From sequence record PP445227.1: 40,616 bases of DNA; one strand, 5' to 3'. The notes under the pieces are model-generated. The model saw only the letters and a program-made list of their open reading frames with translations. It was not told the origin of the DNA and ran no database searches. Made by a program: the position numbers and the translations under genes. The stretch is from Escherichia phage EC.W1-9. Each line of letters starts with the position of its first letter. Position 1 is the stretch's first letter. Below, piece by piece: positions 180 through 9,400 of the stretch.

Positions 180-995
180 ATGAGCAGACATGCAACAGAT
201 TGGGCCTGGGAGACAGATCCAGGTAGCTCATCATTAAAGCTCATACTGCTCTCGATGGCTGACAGAGCCGATGAATATAACCTCTGCTACCCCAGCATAG
301 AACGCCTCGTTAAAGACACTTGCCTGAATAAAAAAACCGTGCAGGCCGGGCTTATATCGCTCATGAAAATGGGGCTTATTTCAGATACCGGAGAGAGAAA
401 GGGAGCGACAAAAAGAGTGCGGGTTTTCTCTCTTAATATAACCAAAAACGGGAACATTAAAGGCAACCGGGAGGGGGGCAATGAACCCGAAAACGGTAAT
501 GTTACCGAAAACGGGAATATACCCAAAAACGGGATGTTGAATGATCCCAAAAACGGGATGTTGAATGATCCCAAAAACGGGATCCAGAACCAGTCATATA
601 ACCAGTCATTTAACCAAGAGAGGGAGAGCAGGACAAAAAGCGGGGATTCTGTGCCTCATGACCCCGGAGCAAACAACGCCGTGATGAATAACTTTGTTCC
701 TCCTGGTGGGCCAGGGCAATTAGGCAAATTTGTCATGCATGAACAATGGCAGCCATCAGATGACTTTCTTCGGAAAAGCTCATTGCAGGGGATCTACCTG
801 GACAGTCTGCCAACGGCACAGGAACTTGCAGAGTTCAGAATTTACTGGATGGCTGAGGGTAAGGCATACCATCAGGCACAGTGGGAGCAGAAGCTGGCAA
901 GGCGGCTGCAGATTAGCAGACAGAAGCAATCAACATTACCTGATAACAACGTTCCGCACTGGAACAGCCCTGAAGCATGGGAGGATTTCTTGTGA
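180..995 (+). CDS. Replication initiation protein, lambda O-like (N-terminal winged-helix DNA-binding domain, internal iteron-encoded repeats)
   Basis: 271-aa ORF; N-terminus LKLILLSMADRADEYNLCYPSIERL typical of phage replication initiators; middle encodes PKNGMLNDPKNG repeats from DNA iterons; lies directly upstream of a P-like gene. Confidence 0.75.
   Translation: MSRHATDWAWETDPGSSSLKLILLSMADRADEYNLCYPSIERLVKDTCLNKKTVQAGLISLMKMGLISDTGERKGATKRVRVFSLNITKNGNIKGNREGGNEPENGNVTENGNIPKNGMLNDPKNGMLNDPKNGIQNQSYNQSFNQERESRTKSGDSVPHDPGANNAVMNNFVPPGGPGQLGKFVMHEQWQPSDDFLRKSSLQGIYLDSLPTAQELAEFRIYWMAEGKAYHQAQWEQKLARRLQISRQKQSTLPDNNVPHWNSPEAWEDFL
441..615. repeat. Iteron array (candidate replication origin) inside the O-like gene
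   Basis: At least six direct repeats of core AAAACGG(G/T)A at 444, 489, 507, 525, 549, 573 (two exact 24-bp copies CCCAAAAACGGGATGTTGAATGAT), followed by duplicated ACCAGTCAT(A/T)TAAC. Confidence 0.65.
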
Positions 996-1777
996 ACAAC
1001 GTTTTTACCGCGATACAAAACCGTGACGGAGAAGCCCTTTCTCGCATGTCAGGTTATGAGCATCAGTACGTCAACAATGACAATGTGGTGAACATGTCAG
1101 CAGAGAGGCTTGTTGATGCCCTTTTTAAACAGCTGAAACAACTGTTTCCGGCGGCAGTGGTAACCAACCTGAAGACGCCAGAGCAGGAAGTTGCTGCAAA
1201 ACAGCAGTGGATTGCTGCGTTTGCCGAAGGGGGGATCCGAACCCGTGAACAGGTTTCTGCTGGTATGCGCCACGCCCGCGCCAGTGAATCTCCGTTCTGG
1301 CCGTCTCCAGGGCAATTTATCAAGTGGTGCAAAGACAGCAAGATGGTTCTTGGCGTCACCATTGACGATGTGATGGCGGAGTTTCACCGGTACAGCAAGG
1401 AAAAAAGTTTATATCCTGGTGGTCCCGAAAGATTCCCGTGGCGACATCCGGTTATGTACTGGGTCGTATGTGATACCCGCCGTGCAATGTATCAGCGCCA
1501 GCTTAGCGAGATTGAGGTTGAGAAACACGCACGCAGGCTGCTCGATGATTGGGCGAAAAAGGTGGCTTCCGGACAGCAGATACCCGATCCGGTGATCAGC
1601 ATACAGGCAAAGCCAGAGCCCATGAGTACGCCTCCGGACACAGGGAGAGACGTTTACCATCCACCAGGGCGAAGTTTCGGGTGCATGCCTAACGCCGCCA
1701 CCCTTGGGGGAATAACACCGGCGCAGTGGCTGATGGAGGAATACAGGCGGGGAAAGGCGGCAGGATTTATCAAGTAA
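992..1777 (+). CDS. P: Replication protein P-like (DnaB helicase loader)
   Basis: Segment GGIRTREQVSAGMRHARASESPFWPSPGQFIKWCKD closely parallels lambda P (NGITTMEQVNAGMRVARRQNRPFLPSPGQFVAWCRE); GTG at 992 overlaps the O stop (GTGA) with GGAGG 7 nt upstream. The track's ATG at 977 is an alternative start. Confidence 0.8.
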   Translation: MNNVFTAIQNRDGEALSRMSGYEHQYVNNDNVVNMSAERLVDALFKQLKQLFPAAVVTNLKTPEQEVAAKQQWIAAFAEGGIRTREQVSAGMRHARASESPFWPSPGQFIKWCKDSKMVLGVTIDDVMAEFHRYSKEKSLYPGGPERFPWRHPVMYWVVCDTRRAMYQRQLSEIEVEKHARRLLDDWAKKVASGQQIPDPVISIQAKPEPMSTPPDTGRDVYHPPGRSFGCMPNAATLGGITPAQWLMEEYRRGKAAGFIK

Positions 1778-1814
1778 TACCAGCGCGATAGCGCATTTTT
1801 TTACGTCTATATGA

Positions 1815-1829
1815 TTACCTGGAAGGTAA
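1815..1829. promoter_or_regulatory. Palindromic site TTACC-N5-GGTAA (ATTACCtggaaGGTAAT)
   Basis: Perfect inverted repeat in the P/DUF1064 intergenic region. Confidence 0.5.
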
Positions 1830-1876
1830 TAAAATGTTCTAATCTCTATTGATTTCATGTCTTATGTGGTTTTTAA

Positions 1877-2242: not shown

Positions 2243-2303
2243 ATCGACGATCTATTTAGTTATCAATGTAATCAATAAGTTATGTGGATAAGCGAGGGTA
2301 AAG

Positions 2304-9323: not shown

Positions 9324-9400
9324 TGGCGTGGCATGCAGGATTCGAACCTGCGACCAACCGCTTAGAAGGCGGTTGCTCTGTCCAACTGAGCTAATGCCAC
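9324..9400 (-). tRNA. tRNA-Arg (anticodon UCU)
   Basis: Reverse complement folds as a cloverleaf: acceptor GTGGCAT/ATGCCAC, D-arm GCTC…GAGC, anticodon stem ACCGC/GCGGT with loop CTTCTAA, T-arm GCAGG-TTCGAAT-CCTGC, discriminator G, encoded CCA; 77 nt. Confidence 0.85.

What the first reader, a model, noticed from the sequence alone, without database searches (positions are those of the whole stretch)
441..615. Origin-like iterons embedded in the O-like gene and translated as a PKNG repeat linker
Direct repeats with 18-24 bp spacing lie inside the coding sequence, as lambda ori lies inside O, supporting a theta-type origin bound by the initiator's N-terminal domain. The repeat unit differs from lambda's, implying a distinct initiator specificity.
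Basis: partly seen in the sequence, partly recalled or inferred. Interest (0 to 1): 0.35.

Follow-up and report, generated by a model that had tools for sequence, protein, structure and literature searches.

The report
Replication origin inside a phage initiator gene
Six copies of a short palindromic DNA site sit inside the replication-initiator gene of an E. coli phiV10-like phage; relatives in distant bacteria keep the same site in any reading frame, so it is most likely the phage's replication origin, built like the classic lambda origin but never described for this initiator family.

Summary
Six copies of (A/C)CC(A/G)AAAACGG(G/T)A lie at 441-582, spaced 45, 18, 18, 24 and 24 bp. They are followed by three 12-nt (A/T)(G/T)AACC units at 587-622 and a purine run. 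All of this lies in the linker of a 271-aa initiator (180-995) with an HTH_36 winged-helix N-domain and a DnaT-like C-domain, just upstream of a lambda-P-like helicase loader.

Conservation acts on the DNA, not the peptide. In 71 loci encoding homologous N-domains, the palindrome CCRAWWWYGG occurs 184 times in the 330 nt after the domain and 5 times in 200 kb elsewhere. 24% of copies lie in other reading frames and 37% of spacings are not multiples of 3. Iteron variants track recognition-helix variants. Proteins with the same C-domain but another N-domain carry other repeats.

Two qualifications apply:
- The unit resembles lambda's iteron (TCCC-A-tract-GGGA) rather than being unrelated, yet the protein is not a lambda O family member.
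- The AT-rich unwinding element is weak.

It is a new member of a known kind, of moderate interest.

The parts
180..995 (+). Replication initiator gene (271 aa). It has a winged-helix N-domain, a repeat-encoded linker and a DnaT-like C-domain.
   Evidence: ORF. Pfam HTH_36 covers aa 18-67 and DnaT (PF17948) covers aa 184-252. PHROG 1032 'replication initiation protein', E 1e-108. 97-98% identical to phiV10 p43 and relatives.
180..446 (+). N-terminal winged-helix domain (aa 1-89), the presumed iteron-binding domain.
   Evidence: AlphaFold2 model from a 61-sequence alignment has mean pLDDT 89.6. The topology is H-H-b-H-H-b-b, and pLDDT falls below 50 from residue 90. The nearest solved folds are MarR, Fur, ArsR and BlaI-type winged helices, with weak E-values around 3e-3. 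The nearest viral models are HTH_36 phage initiators, including AB1gp53 and Min27 O.
434..453 (+). Iteron 1, TAATATAACCAAAAACGGGA (core 442-451). It is set apart by 45 bp and is variable among close relatives.
479..498 (+). Iteron 2, CAATGAACCCGAAAACGGTA (core 487-496).
497..516 (+). Iteron 3, TAATGTTACCGAAAACGGGA (core 505-514). This 18-bp unit is duplicated once or twice in some relatives.
515..534 (+). Iteron 4, GAATATACCCAAAAACGGGA (core 523-532).
539..558 (+). Iteron 5, GAATGATCCCAAAAACGGGA (core 547-556). It contains a GATC.
563..582 (+). Iteron 6, GAATGATCCCAAAAACGGGA (core 571-580). Relatives carry from one fewer to five more copies of this 24-bp unit.
587..622 (+). Three 12-nt units: AGAACCAGTCAT, ATAACCAGTCAT and TTAACCAAGAGA. 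They keep only the left flank (RAAY) of the iteron unit. This is the least stable duplex of the region and the candidate unwinding or half-site element.
   Evidence: TRF reports period 12 at 588-616. phiV10 has one more unit. RGAAY units at 10-13-nt period follow the last iteron across the family, at 43.8 versus 4.7 per kb. The least stable 40-mer of 430-700 is 581-620. Only 1 site in 29 is polymorphic.
616..646 (+). Purine-rich tract, AAGAGAGGGAGAGCAGGACAAAAAGCGGGGA (28 of 31 purines). It stands where relatives and lambda have an A-rich tract.
   Evidence: Read directly from the sequence. Comparison with relatives and lambda.
717..974 (+). DnaT-like C-terminal domain (aa 180-265).
   Evidence: phmmer against PDB matches E. 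coli and Klebsiella DnaT C-domain chains 9zbt_D, 6aep_A, 4ou6_A and 4ou7_A at E 7e-21 to 2e-19. Pfam PF17948.
977..1777 (+). Lambda-P-like helicase loader gene. phiV10 annotates the start at the GTG at 992, which overlaps the initiator's stop codon.
   Evidence: Pfam PF06992, E 1.5e-56. PHROG 109 'P-like helicase loader'. phiV10 p44 annotation.

Best explanation
Window 434-646 is the vegetative replication origin of this phiV10-type (Uetakevirus) phage. It is embedded in the linker-coding part of the phage's own initiator gene, as oriLambda is embedded in gene O.

Proposed mechanism, with the status of each step:
1. Inferred. After de-repression the initiator is made. Its N-terminal winged-helix domain binds the six roughly 20-bp iterons (RAAY-N4-CCRAAAAYGG-GA), probably as a dimer on each palindromic core. 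The three invariant, 24-bp-spaced copies nearest the 12-mers form the essential core. The A5 tracts, spaced 18 or 24 bp apart (mean about 21 bp, near two helical turns), would help wrap the DNA into an O-some-like complex.
2. Inferred. Wrapping stress opens the adjacent, least stable stretch: the three RAAY 'half-iteron' 12-mers and the purine tract at 587-646.
3. Inferred. The DnaT-like C-domain binds that single strand and/or the P-like loader, which delivers host DnaB. Replication then proceeds bidirectionally (theta), as early in lambda.

Shown here: the repeats, their family-wide conservation at the DNA level, their co-variation with the N-domain, the domain architecture and the gene context. 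Inferred: binding, unwinding, loader recruitment and the replication mode.

Because the origin is also coding sequence, it is translated as a disordered PKNG-rich linker whose length varies with iteron number.
For: 1. Six clustered copies against 0.87 expected in 40 kb, with none elsewhere on the + strand.
2. Conservation in relatives:
   - In 71 loci with a homologous N-domain (42-87% identity, many genera), CCRAWWWYGG occurs 184 times in the 23.1 kb zones just after the domain and 5 times in 200.6 kb outside (8.0 versus 0.025 per kb).
   - 34 loci have at least 3 copies.
   - Loci that fail the pattern carry variant iterons at the same place.
3. Selection is on DNA, not peptide.
   - Copies fall in frames 1, 0 and 2 (140, 17 and 27) and encode PKNG, PKTE and TQKRD.
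   - 50 of 136 spacings are not multiples of 3. Examples are 17 and 22 bp in Bcep176 and 25, 34, 33, 22 and 23 bp in EBPR podovirus 1.
   - In the window, all 4 Pro codons of the array are CCC, a codon that makes up 6% of Pro codons in the phage's long ORFs.
   - The core is a palindrome, which has no coding rationale.
4. Modularity.
   - The same N-domain with other C-domains keeps the iterons: lambda-O C-domain in GF-2, and others in Vibrio Her, AB1/AP22 and Bcep176.
   - The same DnaT C-domain plus P loader with another N-domain (Tyrion, Klebsiella ST512 phage) has different repeats.
   - Recognition-helix variants track iteron-centre variants: AAAAAC, AACAAY and AAAAGT.
5. The N-domain is a confident winged helix ending exactly where the array starts.
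6. Layout equals oriLambda: iterons in the inter-domain linker of the initiator, a less stable purine-skewed stretch next to them, and a P-like loader gene next (PMC3349717; PMC7466680).
7. Among 67 haplotypes of close relatives, 516-639 is the least polymorphic 124-nt window of the gene: 4 segregating sites against a mean of 16.7 (Fisher p = 2e-4, window chosen post hoc). This fits lambda, where the iterons next to the AT-rich tract suffice (PMC7466680).
Against: - No experimental evidence exists for this phage or any family member. Literature searches found nothing.
- The unwinding element is weak. The least stable 40-mer next to the array has z = +1.4 (91st percentile of the window), against z = +3.4 for lambda's AT-rich tract. 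Several intergenic regions of the window are far less stable.
- Within close relatives, iterons 1-3 are no less polymorphic than the spacers between them (Fisher p = 0.82).
- The low diversity of 516-639 could partly reflect concerted evolution of perfect tandem copies.
- Sequence homology of the N-domain to lambda O is not demonstrable (hhalign probability 2.6%).
- Iteron binding could serve autoregulation or copy control rather than, or as well as, initiation.
Confidence: 0.8

Rival explanations
1. The repeats are only a slippage-prone, low-complexity coding repeat. They would form a flexible PKNG-rich peptide linker between two domains, with no function as DNA.
For: - All six copies in the window are in one frame, and the spacings are multiples of 3.
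- The 24-bp units are 100% identical.
- Copy number varies freely among E. coli prophages, giving proteins of 271 to 311 aa.
- The structure model loses confidence at residue 90.
Against: - Across the family, 24% of copies are in other frames and encode unrelated peptides, and 37% of spacings break the frame.
- The conserved object is a DNA palindrome with a conserved 5' flank (AA at -7/-6 in about 150 of 161 copies).
- The rare codon CCC is used 4 out of 4 times.
- Repeats change when the N-domain changes, not when the C-domain changes.
Confidence: 0.04
2. The sites are bound by the initiator but act mainly in regulation rather than as the place where replication starts. Possible roles are autorepression or a roadblock of rightward transcription, titration or handcuffing, or exclusion of related phages. 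The true origin would lie elsewhere, for example in an AT-rich intergenic region such as 1780-1895.
For: - The adjacent unwinding element is weak, while 1801-1890 is 28% GC.
- Cloned lambda iterons can silence replication of lambda-type phages in trans (PMC3349717, PMC4488673). Iteron arrays can therefore have regulatory or exclusion effects.
- Neighbouring iteron arms form terminator-like hairpins on the minus strand.
Against: - No iteron copy lies anywhere else on the + strand of the genome, so an origin elsewhere would lack initiator sites.
- The conserved RGAAY units and A-rich or purine tract always follow the last iteron in relatives, with a mean maximal AT of 0.70 against 0.54 for the locus.
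- The arrangement copies the experimentally proven lambda layout.
- Regulation and initiation are not mutually exclusive.
Confidence: 0.12
3. The array is a site for another DNA transaction, such as packaging (pac), recombination, or a host factor such as SeqA or Dam (three GATC within 42 bp).
For: GATC occurs at 543, 567 and 581, inside the invariant core. Tandem repeats are also common at pac or cos regions in some phages.
Against: - GATC is not conserved in the family. The -1 to -4 positions fit GATC in at most about 17% of copies.
- The array follows the initiator N-domain through phages with unrelated virion and packaging modules: podoviruses, myoviruses such as AP22/AB1, and siphovirus-type prophages.
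- Total GATC count is at chance level.
Confidence: 0.03

Closest known systems
Bacteriophage lambda oriLambda within gene O (also Stx phages 933W and P27, with six iterons)
   Same: - Multiple directly repeated, internally palindromic sites with a central A-tract lie in the linker-coding middle of the initiator gene. Lambda's unit is ATCCCTCAAAACGAGGGA; here it is ATCCCAAAAACGGGAT.
- Spacing is about two helical turns: 20, 24 and 23 bp in lambda, and 18 and 24 bp here.
- A less stable, purine-skewed stretch follows.
- A P-family helicase-loader gene lies immediately downstream and overlaps the initiator's stop.
- Iteron number varies between relatives: 4 versus 6 in lambda and Stx phages, and 5 to 11 here.
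(PMC3349717; PMC7466680)
   Different: - The N-domain is Pfam HTH_36, not Phage_rep_O, and there is no significant profile match to lambda O.
- The C-domain is DnaT-like, not the lambda O C-domain.
- The iteron is 3 bp shorter between its arms.
- There are six iterons in two spacing classes.
- The AT-rich tract is weak: 60-62% AT against 78-80% in lambda.
- Between the iterons and the purine tract lie 12-nt RAAY 'half-iteron' units. I saw no counterpart to them in the lambda ori sequence.
Edwardsiella phage GF-2 gp62 / PHROG 391 'replication initiation O-like' hybrids
   Same: The N-domain family is the same (57% identity). The iteron type is the same (AATGATCCCAAAATTGGGA x3 plus 2 weaker copies, 24-bp spacing). 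The same CAGAAYCAGTCA units follow the last iteron, and a P-family loader lies downstream.
   Different: GF-2 joins this N-domain and origin to a lambda-O-type C-domain (PHROG 277/2357), whereas the window has a DnaT-type C-domain. The iteron centre is AAAATT rather than AAAAAC.
Iteron-containing plasmid origins (RK2 TrfA, R6K pi, pPS10 RepA, F RepE)
   Same: Directly repeated initiator sites of about 17-22 bp lie next to an unwinding element that itself contains short repeats. The initiator is a winged-helix protein. Copy-number effects of iteron number are known. This comparison rests on established knowledge and was not tested here.
   Different: Plasmid iterons are usually intergenic and are bound by monomers with two winged-helix domains. 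Here there is a single winged helix, the core is palindromic, and the origin is inside the gene. No handcuffing or copy-control evidence is available.
E. coli DnaT (primosomal protein I), C-terminal ssDNA-binding domain
   Same: Residues 180-265 align with DnaT 85-170 at about 55% identity, E about 1e-20.
   Different: The DnaT N-terminal domain is replaced by an origin-specific winged helix. The protein is encoded next to a P-like loader in a phage replication module, so it is an initiator rather than a restart factor.

Membership tests
Lambda-type origin embedded in the initiator gene (functional class) | Three or more directly repeated initiator sites (iterons) inside the initiator's own coding sequence, between its two domains. 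| tested here: met
   Six copies at 441-582, between HTH_36 (aa 18-67) and DnaT (aa 184-252). Far above chance.
Lambda-type origin embedded in the initiator gene (functional class) | Iterons are conserved as DNA, independent of reading frame, and co-vary with the DNA-binding domain of the initiator. | tested here: met
   184 versus 5 hits inside and outside the zone in 71 loci. All three frames are used, and 37% of spacings break the frame. Repeats change when the N-domain is swapped, and helix variants track iteron variants.
Lambda-type origin embedded in the initiator gene (functional class) | An AT-rich DNA-unwinding element lies directly next to the last iteron. | tested here: inconclusive
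   The least stable 40-mer of 430-700 does start right after iteron 6 (581-620), but only at z +1.4, against +3.4 for lambda. Relatives show A-rich tracts there, with a mean maximal AT of 0.70 against a locus mean of 0.54.
Lambda-type origin embedded in the initiator gene (functional class) | A helicase-loader or helicase gene lies immediately downstream of the initiator gene. | tested here: met
   PF06992 Phage_lambda_P, E 1.5e-56, at 977/992-1777. Relatives have a P-like loader or a DnaB-like helicase there.
Lambda-type origin embedded in the initiator gene (functional class) | The initiator binds the iterons, and replication starts there in vivo. | not testable with these tools
   Needs EMSA or footprinting, a minimal-replicon test, and marker-frequency analysis.
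Lambda O protein family (Pfam PF04492 Phage_rep_O plus lambda O C-domain) | The N-terminal origin-binding domain matches PF04492. | tested here: not met
   The window protein matches PF13730 HTH_36 only. Lambda O matches PF04492 only. hhalign of the N-domain profile against lambda O gives probability 2.6%. The only indirect link is shared weaker hits to PHROG 678 and 345.
Lambda O protein family (Pfam PF04492 Phage_rep_O plus lambda O C-domain) | The C-terminal P-interacting domain is of lambda O type (PHROG 277/2357). | tested here: not met
   The C-domain is DnaT-like (PF17948; PDB DnaT chains at E 1e-20). There is no hit to PHROG 277 or 2357.
HTH_36-type phage replication initiators (PHROG 1032, 391, 6643) | An N-terminal HTH_36 winged helix above Pfam's gathering score, in a phage replication module. 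| tested here: met
   HTH_36 scores 40.9 bits (cut-off 25). PHROG 1032, E 1e-108. The model is a winged helix with pLDDT 89.6. The protein is encoded between a cro/cII-side gene and a P-like loader.
DnaT (primosomal protein I) | Full-length DnaT architecture: DnaT N-domain plus C-terminal ssDNA-binding domain. | tested here: not met
   Only DnaT residues 85-170 are matched. The N-terminal 180 residues are a winged helix plus linker. Database names such as 'primosomal protein I' or 'DnaT' for this gene therefore describe one domain only.

The most novel reading that the evidence does not exclude
The short RGAAY-containing 10-13-nt units that follow the last iteron (587-622 here) are conserved across the HTH_36 initiator family whatever the C-domain. 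They may be a specific second class of initiator site: iteron half-sites that lead the initiator oligomer off the duplex array and onto one strand of the unwinding region, comparable to DnaA-trios next to DnaA boxes or the 13-mers of RK2 oriV.

In the phiV10 group the captured DnaT ssDNA-binding domain would then take over that strand and pass DnaB from the P-like loader. If so, a replication-restart module has been rewired into an origin-specific initiator. This family would then use sequence-specific strand capture in place of a strongly AT-rich unwinding element.
Probability: 0.15. Interest if true: 0.6.

Novelty: new member of a known kind. Interest (0 to 1): 0.38.

Why it matters
This module is present in 424 of 5426 complete E. 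coli genomes. There it is annotated only as a 'DnaT-like ssDNA-binding' or 'primosomal' protein, with no origin marked.

Recognising the origin gives several practical returns:
- a defined cis element for building phiV10-type replicons and reporter phages;
- a predicted incompatibility or exclusion determinant between related prophages;
- an explanation for why assemblies break at this spot.

More generally, the work shows that the lambda design (origin inside the initiator gene, N-domain and iterons moving together as one module, C-domain and loader as another) extends to a separate winged-helix initiator family found across gamma-, beta- and deltaproteobacterial phages. It also supplies a family-wide iteron consensus (RAAY-N4-CCRAAAAYGG) and natural specificity variants, which can be used to study how initiator and origin specificity co-evolve.

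Tried and rejected
- A first attempt to scan genome contigs with the 8-sequence N-domain alignment failed because no stretch was conserved enough. A 5-sequence alignment worked.
- The viral-contig scan with the full protein returned only relatives at 95% identity or more. These were useful for polymorphism but not for the conservation test.
- Typing phages 9 and 10 looked like N-domain swaps, because their match starts at 464 or 480. This turned out to be an assembly gap of N's ending in the array. Rejected as evidence.
- Within-population comparison of iterons against spacers showed no difference overall (p = 0.82). Only the origin-proximal half is invariant.
- Sequence comparison with lambda O gave no significant similarity by BLASTP or hhalign.
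- The fold search gave only generic winged helices in PDB (best E 3e-3). Lambda O was not among the top 50 viral models. The AFDB library was unavailable.
- DnaA boxes: one perfect box at 2283-2291, but counts are at chance level. Not part of the origin.
- GATC clustering is not conserved in the family.
- The promoter scan found nothing in 1-2400. The terminator-like hits inside the array are by-products of the iteron arms.
- Literature: the epsilon15 and phiV10 genome papers are not held. No held paper describes these iterons.
Full report
**What the window is.** The window is a circularly permuted, complete genome of a phiV10/epsilon15-type podovirus (genus Uetakevirus). Bases 1-2300 are 97-98% identical to phages phiv142-3, PAS61 and phiV10. 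The end of the window joins the start in phiV10 coordinates.

The finding lies in ORF 180-995 (+), which encodes a 271-aa protein. Pfam finds an HTH_36 helix-turn-helix at aa 18-67 and a DnaT DNA-binding domain at aa 184-252. PHROGs places it in family 1032, 'replication initiation protein' (E 1e-108). The next gene (977/992-1777) is a lambda-P-family helicase loader (PF06992, E 1.5e-56). phiV10 annotates the pair as 'putative primosomal protein' and 'replication protein P', with no origin feature.

**The observation.** The repeats are real.
- CCCAAAAACGGGA with up to 2 mismatches hits 441, 486, 504, 522, 546 and 570, all on the + strand. There is only one other hit in 40.6 kb, against 0.87 expected, and no shuffle reaches 7.
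- TRF reports a period-18 array at 485-534 and a perfect period-24 array at 522-583.
- Spacings are 45, 18, 18, 24 and 24 bp.
- The core is a near-palindrome, TCCC-AAAAAC-GGGA.
- With its conserved left flank, the full unit is about 20 bp: (T/G/C)AAT-N4-CC(A/G)AAAACGG(G/T)A, at 434-453, 479-498, 497-516, 515-534, 539-558 and 563-582.
- A second repeat follows: three 12-nt units, AGAACCAGTCAT, ATAACCAGTCAT and TTAACCAAGAGA, at 587-622.
- After that comes a run with 28 purines in 31 nt, at 616-646.
- In the window all six iterons are read in one frame, as TKNG, PENG, TENG, PKNG, PKNG and PKNG.

tblastn against phage genomes gave relatives at 29-58% identity. All of the following carry 3 to 7 copies of the same core directly after the N-domain:
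- Edwardsiella GF-2
- Vibrio Her
- Acinetobacter AB1 and AP22
- E. coli PPompW prophages
- Burkholderia Bcep176
- EBPR podovirus 1

A scan of one genome per species added 63 loci at 42-87% identity, from Vibrio, Pseudoalteromonas, Marinomonas, Providencia, Acinetobacter, Edwardsiella, Desulfovibrionaceae and others.

Over all 71 loci, the degenerate palindrome CCRAWWWYGG gives these counts:

| Region | Hits | Length | Density |
|---|---|---|---|
| Zones covering nt 241-570 of each gene | 184 | 23.1 kb | 8.0 per kb |
| Remainder of the loci | 5 | 200.6 kb | 0.025 per kb |

Thirty-four loci have at least three copies. Loci that miss the pattern have variant iterons at the same place, for example GTCCCAACAATGGGAC in an Acinetobacter subgroup and CCCCCGAAC-N2-GGTTC in Desulfovibrionaceae.

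Decisively, 44 of the 184 copies are in the other two reading frames, where they encode PKTE or TQKRD instead of PKNG. In addition, 50 of 136 neighbour spacings are not multiples of three, with 17 and 22 bp common.

Inside the window, all four proline codons of the array are CCC, which makes up only 6% of proline codons in the phage's long ORFs. A purely peptide-level repeat does not explain these facts.

**Modularity.**
- The iterons travel with the N-domain, not the C-domain. GF-2 joins this N-domain and iteron type to a lambda-O-type C-domain (PHROG 277/2357). Vibrio Her, AB1/AP22 and Bcep176 have other C-terminal parts.
- Enterobacter phage Tyrion and a Klebsiella ST512 phage have the same DnaT-like C-domain and an about 80% identical P gene, but an unrelated N-terminal part. 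They carry different short repeats.
- Within the family, variants of the predicted recognition helix go with variants of the iteron centre: AAAAAC or GAAAAC, AACAAY, and AAAAGT. This is confounded by phylogeny but is as expected for co-evolving partners.
- An AlphaFold2 model of aa 1-93, built from 61 diverse sequences, is a confident winged helix (pLDDT 89.6). Confidence collapses at residue 90, exactly where the array begins.
- Solved neighbours are generic dimeric winged-helix DNA binders such as MarR, Fur, ArsR and BlaI (weak). Viral neighbours are HTH_36 phage initiators.

**Rest of the origin anatomy.** In lambda, four 18-bp iterons are joined to a 38-bp AT-rich tract inside O (PMC3349717). 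The iterons next to the AT tract are the ones that matter most (PMC7466680).

Here the least stable 40-mer between 430 and 700 starts right after iteron 6, at 581-620. It is only mildly unstable: z +1.4, at the 91st percentile of the window, against z +3.4 for lambda's tract in the same calculation.

Across the family, the last iteron is followed by two or three RGAAY units at a 10-13-nt period, at 43.8 against 4.7 per kb. An A-rich or purine-rich tract usually comes next; mean maximal AT is 0.70 against a locus mean of 0.54. The RGAAY units repeat the conserved left flank of the iteron unit without its palindrome.

Among 67 haplotypes of close relatives, 516-639 (iterons 4-6 plus the 12-mers) is the least polymorphic 124-nt window of the gene. 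It has 4 segregating sites against a mean of 16.7 (p = 2e-4, window chosen post hoc). Iterons 1-3 and the spacer at 460-483 vary freely.

Copy number is polymorphic. Proteins of 271, 279, 283, 287, 291, 292 and 311 aa differ by whole 18- or 24-bp units, which gives 6 to 11 iterons. One genome has a 24-bp shorter gene. phiV10 has a fourth 12-mer.

**Best explanation.** Bases 434-646 are the phage's replication origin, built on the lambda plan. The steps below are inferences by analogy; none is shown.
1. The initiator's winged helix binds the palindromic iterons.
2. The A-tract-containing array is wrapped.
3. The adjacent 12-mer and purine stretch opens.
4. The DnaT-like C-domain engages the single strand and/or the P-like loader, which brings host DnaB. 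This domain is about 55% identical to E. coli DnaT residues 85-170, a region solved as an ssDNA-binding domain.

Confidence that this is the origin is about 0.8. The main rival is that the bound array acts chiefly in regulation or exclusion, with initiation elsewhere. That rival is weakened because no other iteron copy exists on the + strand of the genome, but it is not excluded, given the weak unwinding element.

**Comparison with what is known.** It works like oriLambda, but the protein is not a lambda O family member.
- Its N-domain is HTH_36, not Phage_rep_O.
- Profile comparison with lambda O is not significant.
- Its C-domain is DnaT-like, not lambda-O-like.
- The iteron itself is strikingly similar in design to lambda's. 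Lambda has TCCCTC-AAAAC-GAGGGA and this phage has TCCC-AAAAAC-GGGA.

Database names such as 'primosomal protein I' or 'DnaT' describe only the C-terminal third of the protein.

**Novelty and interest.** An origin inside the initiator gene is textbook for lambdoid phages. What appears undescribed is this initiator family's iteron consensus, its frame-independent conservation across many genera, the half-iteron units next to it, and its fusion to a DnaT domain in the phiV10 group. I found no description in the held literature, and the original epsilon15 and phiV10 papers could not be read.

I rate it a new member of a known kind, with interest about 0.38. It is solid and useful, and mildly surprising in detail, but not a new principle.

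Noticed in passing
window 9324-9400 (-): A tRNA-Arg gene with anticodon TCT is carried by the phage genome.
   Followed up: no
window 1814-1830 and 1877-1891: Two related palindromes lie 63 bp apart in the 28% GC gap between the P-like gene and the DUF1064/resolvase-like gene: ATTACCTGGAAGGTAAT and TTACCTAAGGGGTAA, both of the form TTACC-N5/6-GGTAA. The second abuts the start codon at 1895. They look like operator sites for an unknown regulator.
   Followed up: no
window 2283-2291 (-): A single perfect DnaA box, TTATCCACA, lies in the 2243-2303 intergenic gap. The count of near-matches in the window (12) is at chance level (9.9 expected), so its meaning is unclear.
   Followed up: partly
window 543, 567, 581: Three GATC (Dam) sites lie within 42 bp, inside the invariant origin core. 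Two are part of the 24-bp unit. They are not conserved in the wider family, but they could couple this origin to Dam or SeqA in E. coli.
   Followed up: partly
window 530-573 (-): Neighbouring iteron arms (GGGAT ... ATCCC) followed by the T-run of the next iteron score as intrinsic-terminator-like hairpins on the minus strand. This is probably a by-product of iteron symmetry, but they would face leftward transcription.
   Followed up: no
L002 (KP869107, E. coli O157 typing phage 9) 1901-2000; also proteins P0121-P0235: An assembly gap of N's ends exactly inside the iteron array. Many database homologues are fragments of 50-167 aa on short contigs that stop in the array. The repeats evidently break short-read assemblies and cause truncated gene calls.
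   Followed up: partly
L003 1278-2045 and L004 1280-2047 (Klebsiella ST512-KPC3phi13.3, Enterobacter phage Tyrion): These phages keep the same DnaT-like C-domain and P loader but have an unrelated N-terminal part with no Pfam match. They carry their own short repeats: TACGGTAC-type motifs and GGATCAG x3. This is presumably another origin specificity on the same chassis.
   Followed up: partly
window 717-974 (aa 180-265 of the initiator): The C-domain is about 55% identical to E. coli DnaT residues 85-170. This suggests either a fairly recent capture of the host restart factor's ssDNA-binding domain by phage initiators, or the reverse.
   Followed up: partly
L093 1790-1855 (Stx2 phage 24B gene O): The 24B/Min27-type 'O' protein has a distantly related HTH_36 N-domain (29% identity). 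It carries a quite different GC-rich triple repeat, GGGGTGGGGCAGGAGCTGCCC, at 21 and 24 bp spacing in the same position, translated as GGAGAA repeats.
   Followed up: no
E. coli genome collection: The initiator gene occurs in 424 of 5426 complete E. coli genomes, almost always once per genome and on the chromosome. It is annotated as 'DnaT-like ssDNA-binding domain-containing protein'.
   Followed up: partly
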